The notes: generated by a model not told the origin, from the sequence alone. Counted from the stretch's first letter, positions 7,279 to 51,284 are shown. The stretch is 64,000 nt of DNA from an uncultured Candidatus Saccharibacteria bacterium (GCA_964631145.1 CAZVXT010000001.1:127151-191150), one strand, 5' to 3'. A program made the numbers and translations.

Positions 7279-7298
7279 ATATAGACTATAATAAATAT

Positions 7299-8360: not shown

Positions 8361-8379
8361 ATTAGATTTTAGATAGAAA

Positions 8380-11300: not shown

Positions 11301-14300
11301 AGGGGGAGCAGGTGACGGTACAAACTCTCCTTTAGGCACCATTGCAGCAGGTACGACGATAGCTAACGTTGCAGCTCTTGATCTTAATGGATTTACATTG
11401 TCGACCGCGGAAGCAATAACATCTATGAACGGATTAGGATATGGATTTGGGTCTACCGTGTCTGCTGGTAATAGTAATATGGGAGCATTAATGAATGGTT
11501 CTGGTTCATCGGTTAGTTATAGCGGAGCTATTACCTTGGCTGCGGCGTCACGTATTAATGCAGATTATGGCAGCTTAACTATAAGTAGTGCAATCTCCGG
11601 TGCTTTTGGTTTAACTGTTGGTGGTTTTAGCGATAGTACTTTTTCTGGCGTTATCGGTACAGGTACTGGAACTATTACAAAAGATGGTATTGGAGTATTA
11701 ACTCTTTCAAATAGTAATACTTACACTGGCGTAACTACTATTAGCGTAGGAACTGTAAAGTTGGGTACTGCAGGTGGTGCAACTAATACTCCTTTAGGTA
11801 CAACAGCTGGTGCAACTACTGTAGCTTTGGGCGCACGTTTAGATTTGGCTGGTTTTACCTTGGGGGCTGCTGAACCTTTAACTCTAAATGGAGTTGGATA
11901 TGGTCTCGGTGATTTTGCTAGCGGTGCTTTAATAAATAGCTCAATTGCCAGCGTAACTTATAGTGGACTACTTACGTTAGGTTCGGCATCAACTATTAAG
12001 GCTGATTCGGGAAATATTAGTTTGAGTAATGCGGGAACCATAACTGGTGCAACTTTTGCGTTAACATTAGGTGGAGTTGGAACAGGGACAGTGTCTAGTA
12101 TTATTGGAACGACTACAGGTACTGTAACAAAAATTGATACTGGAACATGGACTCTTGCCGGGGTTAATACTTATACAGGTGCAACTAACGTCAACCTTGG
12201 AACTTTAAAATATGGAGTTAATGATGCAGCTGGTGGCGGACCTCTTGGAACAGCTGCTGCAGGAACAAGCGTTTTTAGCGGTGCTGTTTTAGACTTTAAT
12301 GGTTTTTCTACAGTTACTTTAGCTGAGGTGCTTACTATAAATGGACGAGGAATTGGTAATGGCGGTGCTATTGTAAATAGCGCAGGAGGTCTTAAGAGTC
12401 AACTTGGTGGAGTTGTGTTAGGTAGTGATTCTCGCATTTCAATATCATCAGGTACATTAACATTTAATGGAGGTGTAACTGGTGCCTTTGCTTTGTATGT
12501 TGGTGGAGCAGGAAATGTGACATTTACTACCGGGGTGCTTGCTATGGGTGCAGGGTCATTAGTCAAACAAGGAGCGGGAACTGTAACGGCAACAGGCACT
12601 CATACTTATACCGGTGTGACGCGTATTGATGCTGGAACTTTTGCATATGGAAGCAATGTTACGGTTCTGGCAGGTACCAATCTAACTGTAGCTGGAGGTG
12701 TATTTGATATGGCTGCTAGTACTGATACTATTGGTACAGTAACTTTGATTGATGGGACTATACAAAATGGTACTCTGACAGCTACAACTAGCTACACTTT
12801 TGAAAAGGGTACTGTTAGTGCTGTTCTCGCAGGTACGACTTTGCCAATGACTAAAAATACAAATAACACCCTAACTTTAACAGCTGCAAATACAAATACT
12901 GGAACTTTAACCATTAATGCTGGTAGTGTTGTATTTAGTGGTTCCGGTAGTGCAACGGCGATTACAGGTTTAACTCTAAACTTAGGATCAACGTTAACAT
13001 TAGATAATTCTACTACAGCAGTTGCAAGTCGCCTGCCAGATGCGTTGGCTGTAACTATGAATGGAGCTAATTTCAACTTTATTGGTAATACTGCTGCAGC
13101 TTCATCAGAAACAGCTGGTGCGTTGACTCTTTCCTCAGGTCATAATGTTGTGACTATTACTCCTGGTGCTGGTGGGTCTACAACAATGACTTTTGCGAGT
13201 TTTGCCCGCACCGCTGGTGCAACAGTGCTCTTTAGAGGTACCAGCCTTGGTGCAACTCCAGCTGCTAATGTTTCTACACTGTTGTTTACTACATCAACTG
13301 GTATATTAACCGGTGCCGCAGGTGCCGCTAACTCTACTACTGTTAGTGTAATTAAAGGTGCCTTTGGAGACAGTTCTTTAAGTGGTAATGGAAGTGATAT
13401 GGTTACCTATAATACAGGAAATACTAATGGCTTAAGACTATTGAATGGCGCTGGTTTTAGTGGGGAGTATGCAACAAACTTGGCTACATTAAACTCTAAT
13501 GTAAAATTATCTGCTGATGCTGCTGCAACCACACAAAGTATAAACTCTCTTATTTTAAATGGTTTTTCTATTACTAATCCAGGAACTGCTCAAACTCTTA
13601 CTTTAGCTTCTGCATCACTTGCAGGAAATATTTTGATGAATTCTGCTACCAACATAGCTGGTGCTAATGCAACGATTGGTATTACGACGTTAGAATTAGA
13701 TATCTTAGCTACTGCCAATGGTACGGTGTCTGCAGTAGTTGGTACAGCTGTGGCAGGTTCGTTGGTTCTTAGTGGAAGCGGTAATGTAACCTTTAGCGCA
13801 GCTAATGCTTATACCGGTACAACTTTTATAAATAATGCAACTCTAACATACGGCGCAAGTAATGTACTGTCTAGCGGTGGTGTAACCATGGTTAGCGGTA
13901 CTTACAATTTAAATGGTAATTCTGATACAATTGGGGCTTTGGTGGTGAATGCAGCAAGGATTGATAGTGGTGCTGGGACTTTAACTTTTAGCGGCTCGTT
14001 TACTAGCACAGCAAATAATAATGTAACTACCATTGTATTGGGTAATTTGGCGTTGGGTGGGGCTGGAACTTTTAACATTGGAAATGGATTAATGGATAAC
14101 GATGTTGTTATTTCTGCAGTTATTAGCGGTGCTACTACTTTGACTAAATCAACTGGAGCTGGTGTTTTACTTCTTTCAGGTAGTAATACTTACACTGGTT
14201 TAACTACAGTTAGTGCTGGTACTATTCGTCTAGGTGCTACGGGAGGCGCTACTAATACACCACTTGGCACGACAGCCGCCGGTACTACAGTTTCTGGTGC

Positions 14301-17300
14301 AAGCTCTGCTTTAGACCTAAATGGGTATACGTTGGGAACTGCGGAACCACTCACTTTAAGCGGAGCTTTAGCTACAGGAGCTCTGCAAAACACTTCTAGT
14401 ACCGCGGTTACTTATAGTGGATTGATTACTTTAGGTGCTGCTAGTACTATAATTTCTAACTACGGTGATATTAATATTTCTAATGGTGGTACTATTACAG
14501 GTGCAACATTTGGTTTAACTATTGGTGGTGCGGGTAATGGAACATTATCTAGTATATTAGGAACCACTAGTGGAACTTTAACAAAAAATGGTCTTGGTGT
14601 GTGGACAGTCTCCGGTTCCAGTACTTATACAGGGTTAACAACCATTAGTGCTGGAACTCTAAGGTTGGGTTCAGCAGGTGGTGCAACCAATACTCCTTTG
14701 GGTACAACAGGTGGTGCTACTTCAATAACTAGTGGTGCAATTTTGGATTTAAATGGATTTACATTAGGAACTGCTGAGGCTCTTACTATTAACGGTACCG
14801 GTATCGCAAGTATCGGAGCGCTTATTACAAGCTCCGGAAGCGCTACTTCTTATAGCGGTGCCATTACTATGGGTGCTGCTTCGCGTGTAGCTAATTACGG
14901 TAGTGGTGAATTTACCATAACTGGTGCGATATCTGGAAACTTTGCATTAACTACTGTAACTGTAGGTGGAATAACTCAATCTTCTGGTAGTGTTTGGTCT
15001 GGTACTGGGGCTTTGGTAAAAGAAGGATCTGGTGTATTAACTTTAGCTGGTCAGAATTCGATGACCGGTGCAATGACTGTAAGCACAGGAACCTTAAGGC
15101 TTGGTGCTAATGGCGGAGTTACAAATACACCATTGGGTACTATAGCGGGTGGAGTTACGGTATCGGCAGGTGCGGTACTAGATTTATCAACTTTTACAGT
15201 AGGCGGTGCTTCAACTTGGGAACCTTTAACTTTAAACGGTAGTGGTTTATTAAACGGTGGGGCATTGATAAGTAATTCTTCAACAGGTAGTAGCTTTGCA
15301 ACAATAGCCCAGACTAACTCTCGCATTGTTAATAATGGTGCTGGGACATTAACTATTACTGGTGCTGTAACAGGTGCTTCAACATTTTGGGTTGGTGGTT
15401 CTGGAAATACAGCCATTTCTGGTGCACTTAATACAGCTGGTTTGTTATTAACTAAATACGGTTCTGGGACATTAACTCTTAGCAGTGCTGTAAATATAAA
15501 CACTTCTTTGGTTCGTATTAATGCTGGTACTTTGGCTTACGCTGTGGCAGATGCGCTTTCAACCCCGGCTGTAACTGTAGCCGGAGGTACGTTAAATTTA
15601 AACGGATTTAATGAAACAAATATCGGAGCTATCACATTAATTGATGGTAGTATAGTTAACACTGGTGCAGCCGCTACACTAACTTCTACAGCTACATATA
15701 CTTTAGAAAACGGCACAATAAGCGCTGCCCTTGGTGGTACTGTTGTTGCTGCTATTGCAAAAAATACTGCCGGCAGAGTTATACTGTCTGGTGACAATTC
15801 GTTCAGCGGTGCGTCTGCTACTATTGCGGTGAATGCAGGGTATCTTAATTTGCGCCATAACAATGCTTTAGGGGCGGCTGCCAGTGCTAATACGACTACA
15901 ATTTCTGGTGGAGCAACCGTGGAATTAGAAAACAATATCACTATTCCAAGTGTTAAAGCATTTACTGTTAACGGCACTGGTGTTGCAAAATCAGGTGCAA
16001 TCAGAAACGTTAGTGGTACCAATACTATTTCTGCAAATATTACTTTAGGTTCAACCAATGTTCGTATTAACTCTGATAGTGGCACTTTAACAATTCCAAC
16101 TATATCAGGAAATACCTTTAATGTAATTTTAGGAGGTTCTGGTGATACTACAGTTACAGGCGCTATCGGTACTACTAGTGGTTCTGTAACAAAAGATGGT
16201 TCTGGGACCTCTACATTATCTGGTACTAATACTTACACAGGAAGCACTACTATTATTTTAGGAACTATTGCAGCAAATAGTTCTGCATCAATCGGTAATG
16301 GTAGTTCTACTAATACTTTAATTTTTAATGGAGGAACCTTAAAAGCTACTGGTACTATTACGTCTCTTGCGACTAGAGCAGTAAGTTTATATGGCAATGG
16401 AACAATTGACACCAATGGAAATAGTGTTAGCATAGCTGGTACAGTTGGATCTATCGGTGGACTTACAAAGAGTGGTCTTGGTACATTAACTCTCACTGGC
16501 GTTACTGTAATTGGAGGGGACTTAAATATTTCTGCTGGTACTTTTGTAGCACCAACTTCGCTAACATTAAATGGAAATTTGAGTAATAGCGGTACATTTA
16601 CCCATAGCAGTGGAACTGTAACTATTACACCTACAACACCATCTAATACTATTAGTATTACGGGAAGTTCTGGTATTACATTTAATAACCTGACTAATAC
16701 CACACCGGGGTCAACTATTAAATTCCAAAACGGTAATACATATGCATTTAGTGGAACCTTAACTTTAACGGGAACGGAAACTGCTCCTATATGGTTAAGC
16801 AGTGTGTCTCCTGGATCTCAATGGAATGTAACTTTAGCCACTACAGCACTGACCTGGGTTGCTGTCCAAGATTCTAATTGCAGTGGTGGACAATCCATTA
16901 CTGCAGGAAATCAAACTATCCTTGATCAAGGTAATAATACCGGGTCTTGTTGGTTGTTTATTAGCCGTAGTTCTGGCGGCGGTGGTGGACCAAGTGAGGG
17001 CGGTCCTGGTGCTGGTGGTAACAGCGGTGGTAATGGAGGTAGTGGTAACGGTAATAGTGGTAGTGGAGGTAATGTTCAGGCTACAGCTACTGCAACTTTA
17101 CAAAGCGGTGCGGTAAATAATGTAATTTTAGGAGTTGGTGGCAGTGGATATACTGATATTCCATTAGTATGTTTCAGCGGTGGTTCTCCTAGCGTAGATG
17201 GAGTTGTAGTCGCAATTATATCTGGTGGGGCAGTAACAGGATTTAATTTAATCTCAGGGGGTAGCGGATATGGATCCATACCTTTAGTAATTATTGCAGC

Positions 17301-17382
17301 TCCTGGAACAAGTGGTGGTACATGTGGAAGCAGTGTTGGCGGAGGCGGAGCTGGAGGTGGAGGCGGCGGAGCGGCACCATAA
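8380..17382 (+). CDS. Giant (3000 aa) secreted protein built of autotransporter-associated beta-strand repeats (PATR/TIGR02601-like), with a Gly-rich low-complexity C-terminus
   Basis: Signal/TM anchor 'LLYVGVFIVASLWFLGSA'. Dozens of 'GTLTLSGxNTYTGxTTIxxGTLxLG' repeats. ~280-aa internal segmental duplication. C-terminal 'GGGGGPSEGGPGAGGNSGGNGG...GGGGAGGGGGGAAP'. Confidence 0.85.
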   Translation: MTKIKIKLNYQNYIKALLYVGVFIVASLWFLGSAQKTFAATRTWTGITSNLWSVASNWGGTAPVTGDDLVFPSGASNLSNVNDLTENTIINSITFTGSGYTISGNKFILGAGVAGITDSVSSGGNTLSLDIRLDSTRDFYVTNSTEALTISGRIDGVGGINKEGLGTLILSGSNTYGGTTKINTGVINARTNTALGTIAAGTEVVGGAALELQNSISISYEALTLRGYGVSGGGALRNVGNNNTFGGLITLTSAGGTEISSDSGTLTITGGITGAFPLVFDGAGNITFSTTPIATAAGIVTKNGLGTVTYNFPNTYTGLTTVNAGTLAYGIDNAILSGAVTVTGGTLNIGTFSDMVGTVTLGTLDLANGTITGSTGILSSATWTVYNGTISAIIAGDGGALTKSTSGTVTLTRANQYTGATTISLGVLKIQDSNALGLIDGITTVTAGATLQVDGDGLSIPEYITFSGAGHLYYGAILNSTGNNTLTGLLTMGATAMIKSNIGTTLTVDGKGLLASGVPLYIGGAGDITFTSTAPIYGTTASLIKNDSGVLRIQSFSNYTGATTINRGTLELSSAGALPSSAITVNSGGVFTIDNSSISALNRMSETAAFTMNGGRFNFIGSATNSTSESTGALTLSSGHNIITITPGSGGSTTMTFASLSRTAGATALFRGTNFGSTPAANVSTLMFTTAPTLTGASGSAGTTTVSVIKGVFGDGYLNGNGSDMVTYNVGNTNGVRLLNGAGNSGEYATTLTTNANVKLTADVVASTASINSLILNGFSITNPGSAATLTIASASLSGNVLINSATSISGSNTTIGITTLELDILATANGTISAVVGTAVTGSMTLSGTGNITLSAASAYTGTTTINNATLTYGASNVLSSGGVTVNGGTLDIGANSDTVGAVILQNGVITGGVGILTGTSYSFREGTVSAIIAGAVTVTVVATNAASDAVVTMTRNNTYTGATAISSGILKLGGAGDGTNSPLGTIAAGTTIANVAALDLNGFTLSTAEAITSMNGLGYGFGSTVSAGNSNMGALMNGSGSSVSYSGAITLAAASRINADYGSLTISSAISGAFGLTVGGFSDSTFSGVIGTGTGTITKDGIGVLTLSNSNTYTGVTTISVGTVKLGTAGGATNTPLGTTAGATTVALGARLDLAGFTLGAAEPLTLNGVGYGLGDFASGALINSSIASVTYSGLLTLGSASTIKADSGNISLSNAGTITGATFALTLGGVGTGTVSSIIGTTTGTVTKIDTGTWTLAGVNTYTGATNVNLGTLKYGVNDAAGGGPLGTAAAGTSVFSGAVLDFNGFSTVTLAEVLTINGRGIGNGGAIVNSAGGLKSQLGGVVLGSDSRISISSGTLTFNGGVTGAFALYVGGAGNVTFTTGVLAMGAGSLVKQGAGTVTATGTHTYTGVTRIDAGTFAYGSNVTVLAGTNLTVAGGVFDMAASTDTIGTVTLIDGTIQNGTLTATTSYTFEKGTVSAVLAGTTLPMTKNTNNTLTLTAANTNTGTLTINAGSVVFSGSGSATAITGLTLNLGSTLTLDNSTTAVASRLPDALAVTMNGANFNFIGNTAAASSETAGALTLSSGHNVVTITPGAGGSTTMTFASFARTAGATVLFRGTSLGATPAANVSTLLFTTSTGILTGAAGAANSTTVSVIKGAFGDSSLSGNGSDMVTYNTGNTNGLRLLNGAGFSGEYATNLATLNSNVKLSADAAATTQSINSLILNGFSITNPGTAQTLTLASASLAGNILMNSATNIAGANATIGITTLELDILATANGTVSAVVGTAVAGSLVLSGSGNVTFSAANAYTGTTFINNATLTYGASNVLSSGGVTMVSGTYNLNGNSDTIGALVVNAARIDSGAGTLTFSGSFTSTANNNVTTIVLGNLALGGAGTFNIGNGLMDNDVVISAVISGATTLTKSTGAGVLLLSGSNTYTGLTTVSAGTIRLGATGGATNTPLGTTAAGTTVSGASSALDLNGYTLGTAEPLTLSGALATGALQNTSSTAVTYSGLITLGAASTIISNYGDINISNGGTITGATFGLTIGGAGNGTLSSILGTTSGTLTKNGLGVWTVSGSSTYTGLTTISAGTLRLGSAGGATNTPLGTTGGATSITSGAILDLNGFTLGTAEALTINGTGIASIGALITSSGSATSYSGAITMGAASRVANYGSGEFTITGAISGNFALTTVTVGGITQSSGSVWSGTGALVKEGSGVLTLAGQNSMTGAMTVSTGTLRLGANGGVTNTPLGTIAGGVTVSAGAVLDLSTFTVGGASTWEPLTLNGSGLLNGGALISNSSTGSSFATIAQTNSRIVNNGAGTLTITGAVTGASTFWVGGSGNTAISGALNTAGLLLTKYGSGTLTLSSAVNINTSLVRINAGTLAYAVADALSTPAVTVAGGTLNLNGFNETNIGAITLIDGSIVNTGAAATLTSTATYTLENGTISAALGGTVVAAIAKNTAGRVILSGDNSFSGASATIAVNAGYLNLRHNNALGAAASANTTTISGGATVELENNITIPSVKAFTVNGTGVAKSGAIRNVSGTNTISANITLGSTNVRINSDSGTLTIPTISGNTFNVILGGSGDTTVTGAIGTTSGSVTKDGSGTSTLSGTNTYTGSTTIILGTIAANSSASIGNGSSTNTLIFNGGTLKATGTITSLATRAVSLYGNGTIDTNGNSVSIAGTVGSIGGLTKSGLGTLTLTGVTVIGGDLNISAGTFVAPTSLTLNGNLSNSGTFTHSSGTVTITPTTPSNTISITGSSGITFNNLTNTTPGSTIKFQNGNTYAFSGTLTLTGTETAPIWLSSVSPGSQWNVTLATTALTWVAVQDSNCSGGQSITAGNQTILDQGNNTGSCWLFISRSSGGGGGPSEGGPGAGGNSGGNGGSGNGNSGSGGNVQATATATLQSGAVNNVILGVGGSGYTDIPLVCFSGGSPSVDGVVVAIISGGAVTGFNLISGGSGYGSIPLVIIAAPGTSGGTCGSSVGGGGAGGGGGGAAP

Positions 17383-37031: not shown

Positions 37032-37622
37032 TCACACTTCTAAGTTAATTTTCTCTATCCTGTATAGTTCTGGATGGTTTTTATGTCGTGCTGAGTTGTT
37101 GCTCCATCTAAGAGCAGAATAACCATTTATTATCCCGTGGGCACACCATCGTGGGTCGGTTATGAGAAATCCAAATGATGGTTTATTCCATAAAATCAAC
37201 GAAGCCATAAACTTAAACCAACTACTTTCATTTAACACAGTGGGGAAGTATCCATGGAATGAACGGTTTGTTTTGTATATCCAGAGATGTTTTCCAAGAT
37301 TATGGTCAGGGTGGGAAGTAATTTGTAAAACTTCTAATATGTTGCTACCCAAGAAATCTACCAATGGTAAATGCCCAAGTAAGTTTTTAGTGGAATCATA
37401 AACTCTTGACTGTAGGGCAAATTCGTATCCTGGTTTTAAGCTGGTTATATGTAAATTTAAAAATTTTTCATCTACATTTGAAAATCTTGTAAGAAATACT
37501 TCGCGGCTTTGATCGGTGTTGGTTTCTGATTGGTATTCGTATTTAGAGAACTCTAAAAAATGGCTCGGAGGGATTAAGTCCCTTAAGCATTTAAGAAAAT
37601 GTATAGGATGTTTTTTCCACAT
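37032..37622 (-). CDS. Hypothetical protein (196 aa)
   Basis: ORF only; no motif recognised. Lies in an AT-rich island-like region. Confidence 0.45.
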   Translation of the reverse strand: MWKKHPIHFLKCLRDLIPPSHFLEFSKYEYQSETNTDQSREVFLTRFSNVDEKFLNLHITSLKPGYEFALQSRVYDSTKNLLGHLPLVDFLGSNILEVLQITSHPDHNLGKHLWIYKTNRSFHGYFPTVLNESSWFKFMASLILWNKPSFGFLITDPRWCAHGIINGYSALRWSNNSARHKNHPELYRIEKINLEV

Positions 37623-37901: not shown

Positions 37902-37976
37902 CTCACTTCGTTCGATTCCTCTATACCTACACCAATAATAAAACACCAGACAAGCTGATGTTTTATTATTGGTAGC
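37902..37976. repeat. Direct repeat copy 1 (~75 bp; 67-nt block identical to 40515-40581)
   Basis: 'CTCACTTC..GTTCGATTCCTCTATACCTACACCAATAATAAAACACCAGACAAGCTGATGTTTTATTATTGGTAGC'. Contains the hairpin CCAATAATAAAACA-n13-TGTTTTATTATTGG. Ends with GGTAGC (= the tRNA 3' GCUACC...). Confidence 0.85.
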
Positions 37977-38203
37977 CCGAGACGGGAAGCGGTTCGAATT
38001 TTAGAAAGAATTGTGAAAAAACTTTACAAGCTTTTCAAAGATGGAGGAAGCTTCAAAAATGAGTAAAGAGTGTAAAGATTACGTTACTCTAAAAAGTCAA
38101 GGTATATTATCAAAAGTAGTATGTCTAGACTTAAATATATAAACAAGTATTCCACTCTGATTTGGTAAAGTATTTTTCTTGTTATGCTATAACCTTAGAA
38201 TGT

Positions 38204-39334
38204 CTAATCTTTTTTAAAACCTGCCCAACTGTCTATTGGTAATTCTATATGGGGAATATTCGGTATTGCATAATCAATATTTTTGTTTCCAAAATTTTGA
38301 ATTACAAATTTAATTCTACTATATGGATTTTCGTGGCATTTTTTAAATTTTTTACCGCTTTTGCAACCGCACAAATCATTTCTACCTAAACCCTTGTATT
38401 GACTAAAGTTCATAAGTTCTAGCATGTCAAAAGCTTCTTTATCAATTGGGTCGTAGAATACTTCTTTCTTTTTTATCGCTCCAGTTGTATATCCATTAGG
38501 ATTTCCACCTGCGTATATTTGCGTAGGTGATGAAAACCTAAAATCTTTATGAGCTTGTTCGACTCGTTCTTGTTTTTTTGCAATACTTTTTATATAAGAG
38601 TTATTTATTATTGACCTATTCACGTTGATTAATTCATTTTCACTAAGTAAGTTAATTTTTTCTGCTATGAAATTCAATTTTGCAGAATTCCAATATGCAA
38701 CGTAGAAGCTAGCGTTGACTGGGATAAGAACTAAGGTTTCTGTTAATCCAATATGTCGATTGCTAACATCGAAAAATCTAGATTTTATTCCAGTTGCGAC
38801 GGTTGAAATAAATTGATCACTCATTAAGAAGTCGTCACTGCTTTCAATTATCCCGCAATTGTAAAAATTTTCTAAAATTTTAGAAAGACTTTGGATGTAT
38901 TCAATATTCAAAATTTTTTTTGTGAGTAAAGGGATTTTATGATCACTGTTTCCACTAGCAAATTCAGTGAGTAAAGCCCCGCTTCTATAATAAAATACTA
39001 ATAACTTTGGGAGCATCTTTGTTAAACACTTCTTTATATCTGCAAATTCTTTAGCACCATTTTTAACATCCGAAATAACGCTAAGTAATTCTGCCATTTC
39101 ATTTATTGCTTCATTGTCTAATTTGGCAAATTGGTTTTCTAATTCATTTTTTTCTAGTGCTTCATGTTCGTATACAAATGTTTCTGACATTGAATTACTA
39201 GGACTGGTTGGGTAGATTTTTGATTTAGATAACAGTATTTCAAATATCTGACCTTTTTCATTAGTAAAAAAACTAAGCAACCCCTCAGGTATGTAATGTT
39301 GGTTTTTTACTACGTTAGAGTTTTTTAAAGCCAT
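38204..39334 (-). CDS. DUF4238-like protein with a C-terminal SEC-C zinc-binding motif
   Basis: N-terminal 'NQHYIPEGLLSFF' (conserved HY motif of DUF4238). C-terminal 'GRNDLCGCKSGKKFKKCH' (SEC-C motif). No SD. Confidence 0.5.
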   Translation of the reverse strand: MALKNSNVVKNQHYIPEGLLSFFTNEKGQIFEILLSKSKIYPTSPSNSMSETFVYEHEALEKNELENQFAKLDNEAINEMAELLSVISDVKNGAKEFADIKKCLTKMLPKLLVFYYRSGALLTEFASGNSDHKIPLLTKKILNIEYIQSLSKILENFYNCGIIESSDDFLMSDQFISTVATGIKSRFFDVSNRHIGLTETLVLIPVNASFYVAYWNSAKLNFIAEKINLLSENELINVNRSIINNSYIKSIAKKQERVEQAHKDFRFSSPTQIYAGGNPNGYTTGAIKKKEVFYDPIDKEAFDMLELMNFSQYKGLGRNDLCGCKSGKKFKKCHENPYSRIKFVIQNFGNKNIDYAIPNIPHIELPIDSWAGFKKD

Positions 39335-39466
39335 TAGTTAAAAAAGACAAATTAAGGGATTTCTATTTGATTTTACCTGTCCAAAACAAAATTTAGAAAA
39401 TATTGACATATTTGTTCTACTTATAGAATTATAGAAATAAATAATAGAAAGTTGTAAGAATTTAAA

Positions 39467-39949
39467 CTAGAAAATAAATACAGAGCTAACAATTAATAAA
39501 CCAATAATCCCTAAACCAAGAGATGCTATTTGTAACTTCAAAATACTATCAGATGTATTCTGAGGTAGCTTGTTAAAAGTTATATTTACTAAGCTGTTAA
39601 TTTTTTCTTGACTATCAACAACCCTTTTTGAAATGGCTTCTGCTATGCTTTCTGCTGCTGTAGCCCAGTCGCCAAAAAATCTGCGATCTTTTATAAAAAT
39701 CGATACACCTAAACCCATTGAAATAATAAATGAAGACCAAGAAAGTACCAATATTATTTTAAATATTTGGCTTAAATCTACTTCTAAATTATCCTTTTGC
39801 AATACAAATAGTGAAGCTGTTAAAAAGACAGTGGCAACAAGTATTAATTGTCTAACCGCTTCTGTCTCTGAATCGTTAAGTGCTTTTACATAATGATCTC
39901 TAACTGATTCATATTTATTTTTTTGTTTATTTAATTCTTCTGGTGTCAT
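39467..39949 (-). CDS. Small 3-TM membrane protein (160 aa)
   Basis: Three predicted TM helices ('LILVATVFLTASLFVL', 'IILVLSWSSFIISMGLGVSIFI', 'IASLGLGIIGLLIVSSVFIF'). Confidence 0.5.
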   Translation of the reverse strand: MTPEELNKQKNKYESVRDHYVKALNDSETEAVRQLILVATVFLTASLFVLQKDNLEVDLSQIFKIILVLSWSSFIISMGLGVSIFIKDRRFFGDWATAAESIAEAISKRVVDSQEKINSLVNITFNKLPQNTSDSILKLQIASLGLGIIGLLIVSSVFIF

Positions 39950-40368
39950 AATGATTTATTTGCTATTTTCTTCTTCTGGCACTCCGGGAAGGTCTGGTAT
40001 TGACGGGCGAGCGTGACCCTTTTTTTCGTCATCTTGAATCATATTGGTAATAATCATGGCTTGTGAATGATGAGGTGCTTATCATGGATAGAATTTCTAT
40101 ATCCATTAATGGTTTAGTGAATTGTTATTGTCTTACATATCTTATTTTACCCTCTAGGTAAATTCTCGCAAGCCCTTGCCAGATTTAGACTTATGTGCGG
40201 AAATAAATAGACGACAGTTGCGTATTTCGGCAACTTTTTACCGCTATTTTTATTATGAGATTCAAGTTAGGCTAAATACATACTGATCAGTATAAATATT
40301 AAAAAACTAGGAGAAGTGCGTGAATAGGGGTAGAAATCAAAAAACCCCTTTTCGTGATAGATAAGTTT

Positions 40369-40395
40369 TTTTATTGGTAGCGCTGCGGGGAATTT
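40369..40395 (-). repeat. Remnant of the tRNA-Glu 3' end (att-like partial duplication)
   Basis: 'TTATTGGTAGCGCTGCGGGGAATTTCG' matches the genuine tRNA 3' end at 40571-40597 at 24 of the first 25 positions. Confidence 0.6.
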
Positions 40396-40501
40396 CGCCT
40401 TGCTTGCCTCTGGCAAGCTTCGTTGTCCTGGGTTGCAAAGAACTTCCACAGGAAGTTCTTTGATCGTTCGCTGCGACTTGGGCTTACGCTCCCAAGTCTA
40501 G

Positions 40502-40581
40502 CTCACTTCAACCCGTTCGATTCCTCTATACCTACACCAATAATAAAACACCAGACAAGCTGATGTTTTATTATTGGTAGC
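40502..40581. repeat. Direct repeat copy 2 (~80 bp), overlapping the 3' end of tRNA-Glu
   Basis: Identical to copy 1 over 67 nt, plus 'CTCACTTC' with a 5-nt indel. Confidence 0.85.
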
Positions 40582-40649
40582 GCTACGGGGAATCGAACCC
40601 CGATTACCAGGATGAAAACCTGGCGTCCTAACCATTAGACGATAGCGCC
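40575..40649 (-). tRNA. tRNA-Glu (anticodon UUC)
   Basis: Minus strand: GGCGCTA TC GTCTAATGGTTAGGAC G CCAGG TTTTCAT CCTGG TAAT CGGGG TTCGATT CCCCG TAGCGCT A CCA. Cloverleaf with G1-U72, anticodon TTC, encoded CCA. Confidence 0.85.
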
Positions 40650-47128: not shown

Positions 47129-48214
47129 TTATCTATTAAAATGAAAATGAACCACATCGCCGTCTTGCATAACATACTCTTTGCCTTCCATACGTAACCA
47201 ACCCTTTTCTTTTGCTTGCACATAACCGCCAGCTTCTAGAAGTTTATCGTAGCCAATTACTTCGGCACGAATAAACCCTTTTTCAAAGTCTGTATGAATT
47301 ACTCCCGCAGCTCCAGGAGCTTTTGTCCCTGCTGGGCAAGTCCATGCTTTGCTTTCCATGGGTCCTGCAGTAATAAAAGTAATTAAGCCTAGCGTTTGAT
47401 AAGCTGCTTTGATGATTTTGTCCAAACCGCTTTCGGACATACCTATCTCTTGCAAATAAGAGGTTCTGTCCTCATCTTCTAATTCTGATAACTCGCTTTC
47501 CAGCTGGGCGTCTATAATTAAAGCGTTGCTCGGCATTGGGTCTGGAACATTGCTATATGTTTTTGCGCTCATGTCGTAGCTGCTATTAAAAGCATACAAA
47601 AATGGTTTTGTCGTTAGGAGTTGAATATCCTTAGTGGCAGACTTTTCTTCATCACTTAAGTTTACTGTGTTTGCCATTTGACCTGCTTCTAAAGCAGCTT
47701 TATATTTTTCCAGCACTGTCTGCTTAATTTTTGCAATACGGTCCCCAGACTTTACTAGCTTGCTATTAGATTCTAAACGCTTGTCTACATTTTGCAGATC
47801 GGCAAGTTGTAGTTCTATGGCAATGGTTTCCATATCTCGTTTTGCATCTACAGATCCATTTACATGAATAATATCGTCATTATTAAAGACGCGCGTGACT
47901 TCTAAAATTGCATCAACTTCACGAATATGTGATAAGAACTGATTTCCCAAACCTTCACCTTTATGGGCACCGCTAACAAGCCCAGCTATATCAACAAATT
48001 CAATGCTTGTCGGTACGATTTTTGCGCTTTTTTCTTGCACTGCTAACTTAGCAAGCCTATCATCAGGTACAGGAACAACGCCAACATTAGGGTCGATGGT
48101 TGCAAAAGGGTAGTTAGCTGCTTCAACTTGAGATTTGGTTATTGCATTAAATAAAGTTGATTTTCCTACATTTGGTAAACCAACGATTCCGATTGTCTGT
48201 TTTGAACCCGACAT
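47129..48214 (-). CDS. ychF: Ribosome-binding ATPase YchF (Obg family)
   Basis: 'GIVGLPNVGKSTLFNAIT' G1 motif. C-terminal TGS domain 'GFIRAEVI'. 361 aa. Confidence 0.9.
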   Translation of the reverse strand: MSGSKQTIGIVGLPNVGKSTLFNAITKSQVEAANYPFATIDPNVGVVPVPDDRLAKLAVQEKSAKIVPTSIEFVDIAGLVSGAHKGEGLGNQFLSHIREVDAILEVTRVFNNDDIIHVNGSVDAKRDMETIAIELQLADLQNVDKRLESNSKLVKSGDRIAKIKQTVLEKYKAALEAGQMANTVNLSDEEKSATKDIQLLTTKPFLYAFNSSYDMSAKTYSNVPDPMPSNALIIDAQLESELSELEDEDRTSYLQEIGMSESGLDKIIKAAYQTLGLITFITAGPMESKAWTCPAGTKAPGAAGVIHTDFEKGFIRAEVIGYDKLLEAGGYVQAKEKGWLRMEGKEYVMQDGDVVHFHFNR

Positions 48215-49796
48215 AATTTGAATTAGTTAATGGTAAGTATCCTGTGACTTGCAGCTGATTTTTATCGCTTACAACCTTTTCAACAGTATTGAGTATTATT
48301 GCCCGTTTAGGTTCAAATTTCAAATCCTGTAAGGTCTTTTTAGCTTTTTCGGCAAATGCTTTAATGTCACGTTGGCTGGGTGCTTCCAAGAGCGTTTGGT
48401 TAGCTTGGTCGGTAGTGTTTGCGACTTGTGCTTCAAGTTTAGTGATTTTATCTCGAAGGGGGATAGTATATTCTTTAAGTTGCTCTAAAGTAAATGCTCC
48501 AGCTCCGTAACCTTTGTTATATCGTTCAATCTGACCGTTTAATTTACTGATTTCCTTTTTGGTAGCTTCAACATCTACCAAAGTAGATTTTGCTTTGATT
48601 TGTCGGTTCTTGAGCCAGCGTTCAACCTGTTCGGCTAATAACTTGGGAGAGCTCATCAAGCCAGAAACCTTTTTCCATACCAGTTCATCAGCAACTCTTG
48701 CGTTGATACCTCTTTCTTCACATTTAGGCGGCAAAGGGAAACTTAATGTTCTGTCAGTGCAGCGGTAATATAGGTTTGGCTTATTATAATAGCCTTCACC
48801 CATCCGCTTTCTACCGCATACGCAATCAATTTTCCCAGACAGTAAATACTGATTTTTCTTATTGCGTTTACACAGAGCAAAGTTTGTCTTTAGCTGTTGG
48901 CCTGCTTTTTCAAAAACTTTTGGTTCAATAATTGCAGGAATGGGTATTGTTATCCATTCTTCGGTAGGTCGTAACCTACGACTGGTCTTTTTCTGCTTTT
49001 TATACTTTTCGTTTTTGAGCGGTCTTTCTGGAACAACAGCGTAAGAAGCTCCATAATGGGCTTCGCCAATATAACCCTTGTGTCGCAGCATAGTGCTTAA
49101 GGTGCTGGTGCTCCATACGCCTCTTTTGCTGTTACGTGGCCTAATACCAAGCTGTTGTAGCTTCCTGACTATGGCTCGCAGTGTCATTCCGTCATTAGCT
49201 ACCCAAGAGAATATCATTTTTACAACTCGTGCTTCCTCTGGATTGATTTCATAATAACCGTGTTGCTTATCCTGTTTCGGGATGTAGTTATAACCGTAAA
49301 GGGGATGCGTTGTAAGAATATGTCCTTCTTTTACCTTTCGCAGTTTGCCAAGTCTAAATCTTTCGGCAATTTTCGCACGCTCATATTCAGCAAACAAACC
49401 TCTAACACCGTGCAGAATTTTATCTTCGCTATTTTTTGGTGCAGGAACAGTAACAAAGATAACTTCCACTCCAGCTTCCCGCAACTCATCCATTACTAAT
49501 TCTTGGTAGGAATAACGGCGAGCCAATCGGTCAGGGTCGTAGATAAGCACGGCTTCCCAAACTCTGTCTTTGCTTTTCGCATCCAGTCGAAGCCTATCCA
49601 GTGCTGGGCGTTCCAAAATATCGCCGCTCCAGTCATCATCCTTATACTCCTGAACTATCTGCCAATTATTTTTTCCAGCCAGCTCACTAAAAGTCATTAG
49701 CTGGTTTTTTATGGTGCGTTCTTCTTCGTCAGGATTTTCAGATACACGAGCGTATGTAGCGATTAGCTTAAATTGTTTGTCTGCTTCTGGTGTCAT
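48147..49796 (-). CDS. Large serine recombinase (resolvase catalytic domain + recombinase domain + zinc ribbon + coiled coil)
   Basis: 'YARVSENPDEEERTIKNQL' (catalytic Ser region). 'VLIYDPDRLARR'. Cys cluster 'CVCGRK...YYRCTD'. 549 aa. Confidence 0.85.
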   Translation of the reverse strand: MTPEADKQFKLIATYARVSENPDEEERTIKNQLMTFSELAGKNNWQIVQEYKDDDWSGDILERPALDRLRLDAKSKDRVWEAVLIYDPDRLARRYSYQELVMDELREAGVEVIFVTVPAPKNSEDKILHGVRGLFAEYERAKIAERFRLGKLRKVKEGHILTTHPLYGYNYIPKQDKQHGYYEINPEEARVVKMIFSWVANDGMTLRAIVRKLQQLGIRPRNSKRGVWSTSTLSTMLRHKGYIGEAHYGASYAVVPERPLKNEKYKKQKKTSRRLRPTEEWITIPIPAIIEPKVFEKAGQQLKTNFALCKRNKKNQYLLSGKIDCVCGRKRMGEGYYNKPNLYYRCTDRTLSFPLPPKCEERGINARVADELVWKKVSGLMSSPKLLAEQVERWLKNRQIKAKSTLVDVEATKKEISKLNGQIERYNKGYGAGAFTLEQLKEYTIPLRDKITKLEAQVANTTDQANQTLLEAPSQRDIKAFAEKAKKTLQDLKFEPKRAIILNTVEKVVSDKNQLQVTGYLPLTNSNYVGFKTDNRNRWFTKCRKINFI

Positions 49797-50117: not shown

Positions 50118-51284
50118 TTAGTCTTGTTTGAAGTCATACCTTTCGAATTTTTCTAATGCTGATTGTATTTCGCTGATAGCGAGCGATGGTGGCGTTCCTC
50201 GTAAGGTAGTAGCTGCGACCTTTATTTTAGGTGATAGCCGTGTCCAGCTTTTGCTTGTCCAATTTTTCTCAATTTTATCTCTGGTTTTCCTAACCCCATA
50301 TTGGTTGATAAGTGTATAGAGACCAAGACTGGCGAGTGCGGCATTAAGTGAGTGCGCCTGCTTCTTCTTTTTGGAAGTTAATCCAGCAATCATTGCATCA
50401 AACACTTCTTCAGTTGGTCGTTCCAGCTTAAAGGCGAGCTGACTGGCTGGTGATTTGATTATTTCTGACCACTTGGTAAGTAGGGTTTTTTGCCAGAGTT
50501 CTTTGTTGAATAGCTCCTCAAAAGCAGCTTCCTTAATTTTTTCGCCTTTTATTTTCGAGAGGAAAGCAGTCAGGCTTTGCTGCTTCGCCAGTCTGATTTC
50601 GAAACGTAGAATTTCAGGCTTTTGTTCATCGTTCCAAATGTCTGTAAACATTCGTTCCAGATAAAGTTTGTCTTTATCAATGGCCTTCGCTTTAGGGGTT
50701 TGAATGTCTTTGAGTTTGTCGTAAAAAATGATATTGGCAGAGGAAGCATAAAAATATAAAGCTTGGCCATTATTGCCGTAGTGCCTCACATTCACGTCTT
50801 TTGTTTTGCCGATGTCTGCTTTGTAAAGCGTTGAAATAGCATCCTGCACGGTCATTGGAGCAGGTAGCACGATATTCTTACCAAAGTGTGCTTTAACAAC
50901 TATCGCTTTGCGAAGTAATGCCTTGAAAATTTTAATTCCCATCTGGGAAAGGCGAGCTTGGAGTTCTTCTATAACCCTGTCAAAGTCCGTGTCGTTGTAT
51001 TCTTGAACGCTATTGCCATTTAACAGTTTGGGAACAGAAAATTCAATGTGCAGGTCGTATCTCACCTTAAAATCCTCAAAACGCTGATATACGGTCAGCC
51101 TTGGTAAGTAAATACCAGCCTGTTTGTCTGCGAACGTGGCGTTCTGGGTGAACTTTTGGAACTTATGGCGTCCGTAGTTAAAATCAGTAGTTTTGTCGTT
51201 GATAATTAACGCAGGAGTAAAAAGGTTGGGGTTTCCAACCATAAAGTTCGGATATGTAATTCTGATAGCAACTGTATCCAGCAT
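50118..51284 (-). CDS. Rep_trans-family rolling-circle initiator / MobT-like relaxase
   Basis: 'QALYFYASSANIIFYDK' fits the Rep_trans 'lYiGsrxSxxxxRiYDK' signature. N-terminal 'MLDTVAIRITYP'. ~390 aa. Confidence 0.5.
   Translation of the reverse strand: MLDTVAIRITYPNFMVGNPNLFTPALIINDKTTDFNYGRHKFQKFTQNATFADKQAGIYLPRLTVYQRFEDFKVRYDLHIEFSVPKLLNGNSVQEYNDTDFDRVIEELQARLSQMGIKIFKALLRKAIVVKAHFGKNIVLPAPMTVQDAISTLYKADIGKTKDVNVRHYGNNGQALYFYASSANIIFYDKLKDIQTPKAKAIDKDKLYLERMFTDIWNDEQKPEILRFEIRLAKQQSLTAFLSKIKGEKIKEAAFEELFNKELWQKTLLTKWSEIIKSPASQLAFKLERPTEEVFDAMIAGLTSKKKKQAHSLNAALASLGLYTLINQYGVRKTRDKIEKNWTSKSWTRLSPKIKVAATTLRGTPPSLAISEIQSALEKFERYDFKQD

What the first reader, a model, noticed from the sequence alone, without database searches (positions are those of the whole stretch)
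37902..40649. tRNA-Glu-associated islet bracketed by ~75-bp direct repeats, with stacked tRNA 3'-end remnants and a two-gene cargo
A 67-nt identical block (plus an 8-nt extension) occurs at 37902-37976 and 40502-40581. The second copy overlaps the 3' end of tRNA-Glu(UUC). A third, partial copy of the tRNA 3' end lies at 40369-40395. This is the classic signature of repeated site-specific integration at a tRNA. The bracketed ~2.4 kb carries no integrase. It encodes a 376-aa protein with a DUF4238-type N-terminal 'HY' motif and a C-terminal SEC-C zinc motif, plus a 160-aa 3-TM protein, both without SDs. A DUF4238-like protein paired with a small membrane protein on a mobile islet resembles a two-component abortive-infection or defence module (a membrane effector plus a sensor). 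That role is an inference; I cannot name a described system matching this pair.
Basis: partly seen in the sequence, partly recalled or inferred. Interest (0 to 1): 0.7.

Follow-up and report, generated by a model that had tools for sequence, protein, structure and literature searches.

The report
Integrase-less tRNA-Glu islet carrying DUF4238 gene
A 2.6-kb piece of foreign-looking DNA sits behind a tRNA-Glu gene between two identical 68-base repeats and carries a distant relative of a known single-gene anti-phage protein (DUF4238); this is an ordinary small genomic islet, not a new two-gene system.

Summary
A perfect 68-nt direct repeat (37909-37976 and 40514-40581) brackets 2.5 kb next to tRNA-Glu(UUC), and a third partial tRNA-Glu 3' end lies at 40365-40393. 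The cargo is a 376-aa DUF4238 + SEC-C protein and a 160-aa 3-TM protein. No tyrosine recombinase is encoded anywhere in the window.

Comparison with about 65 related loci shows that the DUF4238-SEC-C gene is a rare, patchy cargo gene.
- In Patescibacteria it lies just downstream of a same-strand tRNA in 10 of 23 loci. Six of these are tRNA-Glu, covering both isoacceptors.
- Some loci keep tyrosine integrases and tRNA 3' remnants (L017, L014, L037).
- The closest homologue (L002) has the same design of repeats made of the tRNA tip plus a terminator.
- Neighbouring genes are enriched in restriction enzymes and recombinases.

A DUF4238 protein from an E. coli P2-like prophage is a validated single-gene anti-T7 defence (Rousset 2022). 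The window protein passes the Pfam DUF4238 threshold but not PADLOC's narrow model. Its fold has no solved relative.

The 3-TM protein is not a conserved partner. It is absent from every other DUF4238-SEC-C locus, and one homologue occurs without a DUF4238 gene.

Verdict: an integrase-less (decayed or in-trans-mobilised) tRNA-Glu islet with a probable stand-alone defence gene. It is a new member of a known kind and of modest interest.

The parts
40575..40649 (-). tRNA-Glu(UUC), intact, CCA encoded. This is the anchor of the islet.
   Evidence: ARAGORN. Rfam RF00005 at 66.8 bits.
40514..40581 (.). Right copy of the 68-nt perfect direct repeat (attR-like). Read on the minus strand it holds the last 7 nt of tRNA-Glu (GCTACCA), then a hairpin with a 19-bp stem, then 26 nt that on the plus strand look like a tRNA T-loop to 3' end (CGTTCGATTCC...ACACCA).
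37909..37976 (.). Left copy of the 68-nt perfect direct repeat (attL-like). It is not attached to an intact tRNA on either strand.
   Evidence: ARAGORN with introns allowed finds no tRNA here at default stringency.
37902..37909 (.). 8-nt extension of the repeat (CTCACTTC). The counterpart at 40502-40509 is separated from the perfect block by a 5-nt indel.
   Evidence: Read from the sequence and the alignment.
40536..40578 (.). Hairpin inside the right repeat: 19-nt arms, 95% complementary, 5-nt loop. It is terminator-like and its stem ends are ACCA and TGGT. An identical copy lies at 37931-37973.
   Evidence: Inverted repeats I2 and I3. Folds.
40365..40393 (-). Third, partial copy: 19 nt of the tRNA-Glu 3' end (T-loop to CCA, one mismatch) plus 10 nt downstream. 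It is a stacked att remnant.
40394..40513 (.). 120-nt G+C-rich spacer made of three perfect palindromes, lying between the remnant and the right repeat. It has no ORF, no Rfam match and an unknown role. It may be the leftover of an earlier element.
   Evidence: Fold z = -6.4 for 40360-40582. No Rfam hit. No match in other loci.
39956..40057 (-). 33-aa ORF that ends 6 nt before the start of the TM gene. It may be the first gene of the cargo operon. Not supported by homology.
   Evidence: the ORF listing. No PHROGs hit.
39467..39949 (-). 160-aa protein with three predicted TM segments. It is a lineage-restricted accessory gene in the variable slot.
   Evidence: no family. (3 homologues). (not linked to DUF4238 elsewhere). 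(hydrophobic segments).
38204..39334 (-). 376-aa DUF4238 + C-terminal SEC-C zinc-motif protein. It is the constant cargo gene and a candidate stand-alone anti-phage protein.
   Evidence: Pfam. Family search. AF2 model with pLDDT 94. hhalign to the validated E. coli DUF4238 protein. BFVD hit to a protein of phage Smp131.
37977..38203 (.). Non-coding left end of the islet. Next to the repeat it reads CCGAGACGGGAAGCGGTTCGAAT, which resembles a tRNA-Glu 3' end only weakly (69% over 29 nt).
   Evidence: (family D3)

Best explanation
The segment 37977-40513 is a small genomic islet in a low-GC, Patescibacteria-like genome. It lies immediately downstream of tRNA-Glu(UUC) between two identical 68-bp att-like repeats.

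**How it got there (inferred).** The most likely origin is site-specific recombination at the extreme 3' tip of the tRNA plus its terminator hairpin. The recombinase would be a tyrosine integrase that is no longer encoded here: either lost by decay, or supplied in trans as for cis-mobilisable elements. More than one event stacked up at the site, which would explain the extra tRNA-Glu 3' remnant and the 120-nt spacer. The 68-bp repeats would also permit excision by integrase or by RecA.

**What the cargo does (inferred).** The functional cargo is the DUF4238 + SEC-C protein. It probably acts alone in the cytoplasm as an anti-phage defence protein, as the E. coli DUF4238 protein does against T7. 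The biochemical mechanism of DUF4238 is unknown in any member. The C-terminal Cys3-His/Cys zinc knuckle probably mediates a binding interaction. The 160-aa 3-TM protein occupies a variable accessory slot and is not an obligatory partner.

**Shown:** the repeats, the tRNA overlap, the domain assignments, the recurrent tRNA linkage, the integrase-bearing relatives and the non-conservation of the TM partner.

**Inferred:** integrase-mediated origin, current mobility and the defence function.
For: **Repeats and remnants**
- Perfect 68-nt direct repeats with only two copies in the window.
- A stacked partial tRNA-Glu end.
- Islet GC is 0.319 against 0.365 for the window, in the lowest 5% of equal-sized windows.
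- An independent read-level contig matches the islet.

**Closest homologue**
- L002 (57% identity) has the same design. A 2178-bp cassette follows tRNA-Glu between 51-nt repeats made of the last 9 nt of the tRNA plus a terminator hairpin, and a third copy lies in between.

**Recurrent linkage to tRNAs**
- A same-strand tRNA lies within 1.3 kb upstream in 10 of 23 Patescibacteria-type loci. The binomial P is 5e-10 at p=0.03.
- Six of these are tRNA-Glu.
- L007 and L010 carry 91% identical DUF4238 genes behind different tRNA-Glu isoacceptors (CUC and UUC) that share identical 3' halves.
- L004 and L010 share 82% nt identity only from the tRNA through the DUF4238 gene, and none in the upstream flanks, the only ones both contigs hold.

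**Integrases in relatives**
- L017 reads tRNA-Thr | integrase | DUF4238 | ... | integrase | Schlafen-AlbA2 | tRNA-Thr 3' remnant.
- L014 reads integrase | DUF4238 | integrase.
- L037 has tRNA-Met, two stacked 3' remnants and an integrase C-terminal fragment before DUF4238.

**Defence and mobile context**
- Among 150 neighbouring proteins the most frequent families are HSDR_N (3), Phage_integrase (3), serine Recombinase (3), SWI2_SNF2/ResIII (2), MmeI and TerL.
- About 95% identical elements carrying the gene occur in three Clostridia genera.

**Homology to a validated defence protein**
- Pfam DUF4238 is hit above threshold.
- hhalign to the E. coli TA007 protein gives E 2.4e-4 over 234 columns. 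Shared motifs are HH(F/Y), SD(N/Q) and GL.(D/E)TLVL.P(V/I)S.
- The model matches a protein of phage Smp131, which I recall as a P2-like temperate phage (my recollection, not from the tool output), at E 1.3e-8.
- The DUF4238 protein gives strong T7 resistance as a single gene (PMC9122126).
Against: - No integrase or integrase fragment is present in the window, so mobility is inferred and not demonstrated.
- Only 7 of the 68 repeated bases lie inside tRNA-Glu. The rest is intergenic hairpin plus a tRNA-like fragment on the other strand, which is atypical for a tRNA att block. The similarity also continues past the block with an indel, which looks more like duplicated homologous DNA than a clean core site.
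- No close relative of this genome is available (best TrxB match 77%, in a different context), so no empty site could be shown.
- The protein does not hit PADLOC's DUF4238 model. The hhalign probability is only 43.5%.
- No relative was found in IMG/VR viral contigs or in GenBank phages.
- The defence function has been tested only in a distant E. coli homologue that lacks the SEC-C motif.
- Four of the six tRNA-Glu-linked loci belong to one related clade (75-91% nt identity), so there are fewer independent events than loci.
Confidence: 0.62

Rival explanations
1. Two-gene abortive-infection module. The DUF4238-SEC-C protein senses infection and activates the 160-aa 3-TM protein, which damages the membrane.
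For: - The two genes are adjacent, on the same strand and 132 nt apart. A 33-aa ORF abuts the TM gene.
- Small 3-TM proteins, unrelated by BLASTP, also lie directly upstream of DUF4238-SEC-C genes in L015 and in the L018-L020 element.
- Membrane effectors are common in defence systems (general knowledge; also noted in PMC9122126).
Against: - The TM protein family has only 3 other members.
- It is absent from all other DUF4238-SEC-C loci by tblastn and hmmsearch at E<=1.
- Its homologue in L005 has no DUF4238 neighbour.
- The closest DUF4238 homologues have either nothing or unrelated genes in that slot.
- The validated E. coli DUF4238 system works as a single gene.
Confidence: 0.12
2. This is not a mobile islet. 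The arrangement tRNA-Glu then DUF4238 is old and vertically inherited in a Patescibacteria clade. The 68-nt repeat arose from a local duplication of the tRNA tip and terminator region (unequal crossing-over or gene conversion), not from site-specific integration.
For: - Six loci share the same order and orientation of tRNA-Glu followed by the DUF4238 gene.
- L004, L010 and L067 share a conserved CGTGCTAGCACG box just after the tRNA, and L010 and L067 share some upstream synteny.
- No integrase is present in any of the six tRNA-Glu-linked loci.
- The similarity between the repeat copies runs past the perfect block with an indel.
Against: - The family is very rare and patchy: 33 loci in 185,579 species genomes and 83 clusters. 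It also spans Patescibacteria and Bacillota.
- Upstream flanks differ completely between L004 and L010, although the cassette is 82% identical.
- Nearly identical genes sit behind different tRNA-Glu isoacceptors and behind tRNA-Thr, tRNA-Met, tRNA-Pro and tRNA-His in other loci.
- Integrases and tRNA 3' remnants accompany the gene in L017, L014 and L037.
- The islet has low GC.
Confidence: 0.13
3. Assembly artefact or free circle. The 2.6-kb unit is really a separate small circular molecule, or a mis-threaded repeat path, that shares the 68-nt block with the chromosome and was placed into the chromosome by the assembler.
For: The k=31 Logan graph breaks on both sides of the islet exactly 30 nt into the repeat. 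That topology fits the integrated form, the empty site plus a circle, or a mixture of both.
Against: - A 68-nt repeat is shorter than standard reads and than the large k values used by assemblers, so the junctions in the 654-kb contig were most likely read directly (inference).
- The same contig occurs in three samples.
- The unit carries no replication gene.
- L002 shows the same integrated design in an unrelated assembly.
Confidence: 0.05

Closest known systems
Single-gene DUF4238 anti-phage system (E. coli TA007 P2-like prophage hotspot; Rousset et al. 2022, PMC9122126; PADLOC model PDLC03000 'DUF4238-Pers'; called Rst_DUF4238 in a 2024 survey preprint)
   Same: - Both proteins match Pfam DUF4238 above threshold (supplement of PMC9122126).
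- They share an N-terminal HH(F/Y) motif, the SD(N/Q) motif and the GL..TLVL.P.S motif.
- Both are cargo of a mobile element at a variable hotspot.
- Both probably act as a single gene.
   Different: - The relationship is distant: no PADLOC hit and hhalign probability 43.5%.
- The window protein has about 110 extra C-terminal residues ending in a SEC-C zinc motif, which the 309-aa E. coli protein lacks.
- The host is a Patescibacteria-like genome and the carrier is a tRNA islet, not a prophage.
- Activity is untested here.
tRNA-targeting genomic islands integrated by tyrosine recombinases (sublocation classes of Williams 2002, cited from my own knowledge)
   Same: - The islet lies at the 3' end of a tRNA gene.
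- It is flanked by direct repeats that include the tRNA 3' end.
- Stacked remnants indicate repeated events.
- Its GC content is lower than the surroundings.
- Relatives of the cargo gene lie next to integrases at tRNA-Thr, and next to an integrase fragment at tRNA-Met.
   Different: - No integrase is present.
- Only 7 nt of the repeat lie inside tRNA-Glu. The block is mostly terminator hairpin plus a pseudo-tRNA fragment on the opposite strand.
- At 2.5 kb the islet is unusually small.
Cis-mobilisable elements (CIMEs): att-flanked islands without recombination genes, formed by accretion next to ICEs in streptococci (from my own knowledge)
   Same: - att-like repeats flank cargo and there is no recombinase gene.
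- Several repeat-delimited modules are stacked in tandem (window: 40394-40513 and 37977-40364; L002: two modules).
   Different: - No helper element with a matching integrase was identified.
- Mobilisation was not shown.
- The lineage (Patescibacteria) and the att type are different.
SEC-C / YchJ-type C-terminal zinc motif (PF02810)
   Same: The motif C-x-C-x8-C-(H/C) at residues 322-334 matches the SecA C-terminal and YchJ-C zinc-binding peptides. It also accounts for the PADLOC 'E2' hits at residues 273-345.
   Different: Here the motif is fused to a DUF4238 domain rather than to SecA or a UPF0225 protein. Its binding partner is unknown.

Membership tests
Pfam DUF4238 (PF14022) | Full-length match to the family HMM above the gathering score | tested here: met
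   E 2.3e-11, 44.1 bits against a cut-off of 27, residues 11-253 on profile positions 1-277 of 281. The relative in L067 scores 70.6 bits.
Validated DUF4238 defence system (Rousset 2022; PADLOC DUF4238-Pers) | Match to the system's own HMM (PADLOC PDLC03000) | tested here: not met
   The window protein gives no hit at E<=0.1. The E. coli TA007 protein scores 718 bits.
Validated DUF4238 defence system (Rousset 2022; PADLOC DUF4238-Pers) | Detectable homology to the experimentally tested protein | tested here: inconclusive
   - hhalign of A1 against the TA007 protein gives E 2.4e-4 and probability 43.5% over 234 columns, with shared motifs.
- Foldseek matches the model to a protein of phage Smp131 at E 1.3e-8, TM 0.41-0.50.
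Validated DUF4238 defence system (Rousset 2022; PADLOC DUF4238-Pers) | Confers phage resistance as a single gene | not testable with these tools
   This needs expression and phage challenge. Only context supports it: restriction and recombinase neighbours and no conserved partner.
tRNA-integrated genomic island (tyrosine-integrase type) | Located at the 3' end of a tRNA gene and flanked by direct repeats that contain the tRNA 3' end | tested here: met
   The 68-nt perfect repeats overlap the last 7 nt of tRNA-Glu. A further 19-nt tRNA 3' remnant is present.
tRNA-integrated genomic island (tyrosine-integrase type) | Encodes its own integrase next to the att site | tested here: not met
   hmmsearch with a profile of four island integrases finds nothing in the six-frame translation of the window at E<=10. 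tblastn on the islet gives only noise.
tRNA-integrated genomic island (tyrosine-integrase type) | Absent from the same site in related genomes (empty site) | not testable with these tools
   The nearest TrxB homologue is 77% identical and lies in a different context. Logan contigs break at or near the tRNA.
tRNA-integrated genomic island (tyrosine-integrase type) | Base composition that differs from the surroundings | tested here: met
   GC is 0.319 (cargo genes 0.296) against 0.365 for the window, in the lowest 5% of equal-length windows (profile).
Cis-mobilisable element (att-flanked, recombinase-less) | att repeats on both sides and no recombination gene inside | tested here: met
Cis-mobilisable element (att-flanked, recombinase-less) | Mobilised by an integrase supplied by a related element | not testable with these tools
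   The window has no tyrosine integrase. The only recombinase is a large serine recombinase at 48147-49793, and that type does not use long identity blocks. The rest of the 654-kb genome was not available.
Two-gene defence system (membrane effector plus sensor) | The two gene families co-occur across genomes | tested here: not met
   - The TM family is absent from about 65 other DUF4238-SEC-C loci.
- Its homologue in L005 has no DUF4238 neighbour.
- The TM protein has no PADLOC or Pfam hit.
SEC-C motif (PF02810) | CxC...C(H/C) zinc knuckle matching the HMM above threshold | tested here: met
   E 5.5e-6, 26.6 bits against a cut-off of 20.4, residues 318-335. C322, C324 and C333 are nearly invariant. 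PDB matches to SecA and YchJ zinc peptides.

The most novel reading that the evidence does not exclude
The DUF4238-SEC-C gene may not be passive cargo. It may itself be tied to tRNA-Glu.

- One form of this reading: it is part of a self-contained, integrase-independent cassette system that inserts at the tRNA tip and terminator, with the DUF4238 protein acting in recombination.
- Another form: its activity is directed at, or regulated through, tRNA-Glu.

The evidence does not exclude this. All six tRNA-Glu-linked loci lack an integrase and keep the same order and orientation. In the window and in L002 the cassettes are bounded by repeats made of the tRNA tip plus a hairpin. The fold has no solved relative, and the biochemical function of DUF4238 is unknown in any member.
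Probability: 0.06. Interest if true: 0.75.

Novelty: new member of a known kind. Interest (0 to 1): 0.3.

Why it matters
Patescibacteria (CPR bacteria) are thought to carry few recognisable defence systems. Here a rare DUF4238-SEC-C subfamily, missed by PADLOC's model, recurs as cargo of small tRNA-linked islands in these bacteria and on mobile elements in Bacillota, next to restriction enzymes and recombinases. This extends the known range of a defence gene whose mechanism is still unknown.

It also supplies a high-confidence structural model (pLDDT 94) with no solved relative, and a list of invariant residues for mutagenesis.

For the scan itself, the main result is a downgrade. The islet is an ordinary decayed or in-trans-mobilised tRNA island, and the proposed two-gene system is not supported.

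Tried and rejected
- **Intact plus-strand tRNA or tmRNA ending in the repeat's tRNA-like 3' end.** ARAGORN with introns and tmRNA allowed finds none. Only low-stringency noise appears. Rfam at E<=5 finds nothing but tRNA-Glu. The T-stem 5' strand is missing in both copies, so this was rejected. An exact 24-nt search of viral contigs found no source tRNA.
- **Structured RNA in 40394-40513.** It folds strongly, but it has no Rfam family and no homologue in any fetched locus. Left unexplained.
- **Further att remnants to the left that would make a larger island including the AEP-like gene.** blastn-short over the window finds none.
- **Empty site in relatives.** The third protein search and two look-ups on TrxB showed there is no close relative.
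- **Phage origin.** tblastn against GenBank phages gives no match. IMG/VR gives only SEC-C motif hits. PHROGs gives none.
- **Homology between the small TM proteins of the window, L015 and L018.** BLASTP E-values are only 0.007-0.09 in a tiny database. This is not accepted as homology.
- **Decayed genes in the islet's non-coding parts.** blastx and tblastn find nothing.
- **Organism name.** The cluster look-up returned no names.


Full report
**1. The observation**

The region was read directly and scanned for repeats.
- A 68-nt block, 100% identical, occurs at 37909-37976 and 40514-40581, with starts 2605 nt apart.
- Both halves of the block occur only twice in the 64-kb window, with zero expected by chance.
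- The 8-nt CTCACTTC precedes both copies.
- The only tRNA in the window is tRNA-Glu(UUC) at 40575-40649 on the minus strand. The right repeat overlaps its last 7 nt.
- A third, partial copy lies at 40365-40393. It holds 19 nt of the tRNA 3' end with one mismatch, plus 10 nt downstream.

A Logan contig assembled independently from run SRR12712853 (L001, 2597 nt, seen in three samples) equals window 37947-40543 exactly. This is the unique islet plus 30 nt of each repeat, as a k=31 graph yields at a genuine repeat.

**2. Anatomy of the repeat**

Read along the tRNA (minus) strand, each repeat has three parts:
- GCTACCA, the tip of tRNA-Glu including CCA;
- a hairpin with a 19-bp stem and a 5-nt loop, whose stem ends are the ACCA and TGGT of two convergent tRNA-like ends (I2/I3);
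- 26 nt that on the plus strand read CGTTCGATTCCTCTATACCTACACCA, which looks like a tRNA T-loop to 3' end.

Neither copy of that tRNA-like end belongs to an intact tRNA. The T-stem 5' strand is missing. ARAGORN with introns and tmRNA allowed, and Rfam at E<=5, find nothing there.

Between the partial remnant and the right repeat lies a 120-nt G+C-rich stretch of three perfect palindromes (40394-40513). It has no ORF, no Rfam match and no counterpart in any other locus. It remains unexplained. It may be what is left of an earlier inserted element.

**3. Cargo and surroundings**

The cargo:
- The 376-aa ORF (38204-39334, minus) matches Pfam DUF4238 (44.1 bits, cut-off 27) and SEC-C.
- The 160-aa ORF (39467-39949, minus) has three hydrophobic segments. 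It has no hit in Pfam, PADLOC or PHROGs.
- A 33-aa ORF ends 6 nt before the TM gene.
- PADLOC hits for the large protein are confined to the SEC-C region (E2-type models, residues 273-345).

The flanks:
- The left flank holds an AEP-like primase gene (37032-37622, minus). Further left are ordinary genes: YibE/F, CobW, an aminotransferase and Fur.
- The right flank holds trxB, EF-P and others.

No tyrosine recombinase exists in any frame of the window. The only recombinase is a large serine recombinase at 48147-49793. The islet's GC is 0.319 against 0.365 for the window, in the lowest 5% of equal-sized windows.

**4. The DUF4238-SEC-C family**

The family is well conserved but rare.
- The first search found 159 homologues. 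They are about 50% identical in Patescibacteria and about 40% identical in Paenibacillus, Bacillus and Clostridia.
- An exhaustive profile search of 1.84 billion cluster representatives gives only 83 clusters at E<=1e-30.
- Invariant or nearly invariant residues include Q12-H13-Y14, E56, E66, Y115-Y116-R117-S118-G119, D173-Q174, K184, R193, N244-N245-S246-Y247, K289-K290-E291 and the zinc ligands C322, C324 and C333.

The AlphaFold model is very confident (pLDDT 94.2, pTM 0.92), but it has no solved relative:
- Foldseek against PDB gives nothing.
- A profile search of PDB sequences matches only the SecA and YchJ zinc peptides.
- In BFVD the one real match is an uncharacterised protein of Stenotrophomonas phage Smp131 (E 1.3e-8). 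I recall this as a P2-like temperate phage, from my own knowledge.

**5. What is known about DUF4238**

Rousset et al. 2022 (PMC9122126) cloned a single DUF4238 protein from the hotspot of a P2-like prophage of E. coli TA007. They found strong resistance to T7 and stated that the molecular function is unknown. A 2024 survey still lists Rst_DUF4238 among systems with no classifiable domain.

PADLOC's model DUF4238-Pers scores that protein at 718 bits but does not detect the window protein. Profile comparison of the window's family with the E. coli protein gives E 2.4e-4 and probability 43.5% over 234 columns. The N-terminal HH(F/Y), the SD(N/Q) and the GL..TLVL.P.S motifs align.

The window protein is therefore a Pfam-level, distant relative of a validated defence protein. 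It carries an extra C-terminal extension with a SEC-C zinc knuckle.

**6. Comparative context**

Loci came from one scan of species genomes (33 loci), one scan of metagenomes (41 loci) and look-ups of individual homologues. Four things stand out.

*(a) Linkage to tRNAs.*
- In Patescibacteria-type loci with enough upstream sequence, 10 of 23 have a same-strand tRNA ending within 1.3 kb upstream of the gene. The binomial P is about 5e-10 for a background of 0.03.
- Six are tRNA-Glu: the window, L002, L004, L007, L010 and L067. The others are tRNA-Pro, tRNA-Thr, tRNA-Met and tRNA-His.
- Both tRNA-Glu isoacceptors are used. L007 (CUC) and L010 (UUC) have DUF4238 genes 91% identical at the DNA level. 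Their tRNAs differ in the anticodon arm but have identical T-arm and acceptor 3' halves.
- L004 and L010 share 82% nt identity from the first base of the tRNA to the end of the DUF4238 gene, and nothing in 7 kb of upstream flank.

*(b) The same repeat design in the closest homologue.* In L002 (57% identity), a 2178-bp cassette is bracketed by 51-nt repeats (82% identical). Each repeat is made of the last 9 nt of tRNA-Glu plus a terminator hairpin. A third copy lies in between and delimits a small first module.

*(c) Integrases in other loci.*
- L017 reads tRNA-Thr | integrase | DUF4238 | three ORFs | second integrase | Schlafen-AlbA2 protein | 34-nt tRNA-Thr 3' remnant. These are two islands in tandem.
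- L014 has integrases on both sides of the gene.
- L037 has tRNA-Met followed by two stacked 3' remnants and the C-terminal fragment of an integrase (HSDIKTTTIY) just before the gene.
- L011 has a reverse transcriptase upstream and L009 a P63C protein.

*(d) A defence and mobile neighbourhood.*
- Among 150 proteins flanking the gene, the most frequent Pfam families are type I restriction HSDR_N (3), Phage_integrase (3), serine recombinase (3) and SWI2_SNF2/ResIII (2). MmeI and a terminase also appear.
- In Clostridia, an element carrying the gene is about 95% identical across three genera.

**7. The proposed partner**

The 3-TM protein has only three homologues in 5.8 billion cluster representatives.
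- None of about 65 other DUF4238-SEC-C loci encodes a relative, by tblastn and by profile search at E<=1.
- The homologue with usable context (L005) lies next to a large helicase-nuclease and has no DUF4238 gene nearby.

The position between the tRNA and the DUF4238 gene varies:
- empty in L007 and L067;
- a 171-aa protein with sub-threshold HEPN hits in L004 and L010 (87% identical to each other);
- a 63-aa acidic ORF in L002;
- the TM protein here.

Unrelated small 3-TM proteins occur upstream in L015 and in L018-L020. A loose functional analogy therefore cannot be excluded. A conserved two-gene system is not supported.

**8. Interpretation**

The best-supported reading is a small, integrase-less islet at tRNA-Glu. 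It was formed by site-specific recombination at the tRNA tip and terminator, with stacking of more than one event. Its constant cargo is a stand-alone DUF4238-SEC-C protein that most likely serves phage defence.

The origin by integrase, the present mobility and the defence role are inferences.

Points against:
- There is no integrase.
- The repeat lies mostly outside tRNA-Glu, and its similarity continues with an indel.
- No empty site could be shown, because no close relative of this genome is available (TrxB at most 77%).
- The homology to the tested protein is distant.

Each is given with its tests in the structured fields.

**9. Novelty and score**

tRNA islands, recombinase-less att-flanked elements and DUF4238 as a defence gene are all known. 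Genomic islands carrying defence genes are already reported in Patescibacteria (PMC12455944).

Three modest new points emerge:
- a rare DUF4238-SEC-C subfamily that current defence models miss;
- its recurrent linkage to tRNA-Glu in candidate-phyla bacteria;
- a confident model of a fold with no solved relative.

Interest is 0.3, as a new member of a known kind. The most novel reading not excluded is that the DUF4238 protein is itself tied to tRNA-Glu, either in insertion or as a target. This is unlikely (about 0.06) but would be interesting if true.

Noticed in passing
window 37032-37622 (-): A 196-aa protein matches Pfam AEP-like (archaeo-eukaryotic primase 1D-like, E 6e-27) and lies directly outside the left repeat. 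Primase-like genes are common on integrative elements. However, no further att remnant was found to the left.
   Followed up: partly
window 48147-49793 (-), with 50118-51281 (-): A large serine recombinase (Resolvase + Recombinase + Zn_ribbon_recom) lies about 7.5 kb to the right of tRNA-Glu, next to a 387-aa ORF with no Pfam match. This may be a second mobile element.
   Followed up: no
window 40394-40513: A 120-nt G+C-rich stretch consists of three perfect palindromes with stems of 7, 11 and 8 bp. It lies between the partial tRNA-Glu remnant and the right repeat. It folds strongly (z -6.4 for 40360-40582), has no Rfam family and has no match in other loci.
   Followed up: partly
window 37909-37934 and 40514-40539 (+): Inside both repeat copies is a tRNA-like T-loop to 3' end on the plus strand (GTTCGATTCC...ACACCA), convergent with tRNA-Glu and sharing the hairpin. 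Neither copy has the 5' half of a tRNA. An exact search of viral contigs found no source tRNA.
   Followed up: partly
window 13-7278 (+) and 8380-17382 (+): Two giant ORFs of 2421 and 3000 aa lie at the start of the window. They were not examined.
   Followed up: no
L017 6928-14002: Two tyrosine-integrase islands lie in tandem at tRNA-Thr. The first carries the DUF4238-SEC-C gene and the second a Schlafen AlbA_2 protein. They end with a 34-nt tRNA-Thr 3' remnant at 13969-14002.
   Followed up: yes
L004 7460-7975 and L010 7450-7965: A 171-aa protein sits between tRNA-Glu and the DUF4238 gene, 87% identical between the two loci. It has an RNHMAHG motif and sub-threshold HEPN hits (Apea-like E 0.017, RiboL-PSP E 0.035).
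   Followed up: partly
L018, L019, L020 (about 4900-10700): Geosporobacter, Lutispora and Caloramator genomes share about 95% nt identity over 5.8-10.7 kb. The shared region includes the DUF4238-SEC-C gene and two 3-TM ORFs upstream of it. This looks like a recently transferred element.
   Followed up: partly
L037 7290-7880: tRNA-Met is followed by two further copies of its 3' end, about 175 nt apart, and then by the C-terminal fragment of a tyrosine integrase just before the DUF4238 gene. This is the same short stacked-unit pattern as in the window.
   Followed up: partly
window 40230-40249 and L006 1216-1235: A 20-nt exact match (GCAACTTTTTACCGCTATTT, hairpin-like) lies near the TM gene in both loci, but in opposite orientation relative to the gene. 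It may be chance.
   Followed up: no
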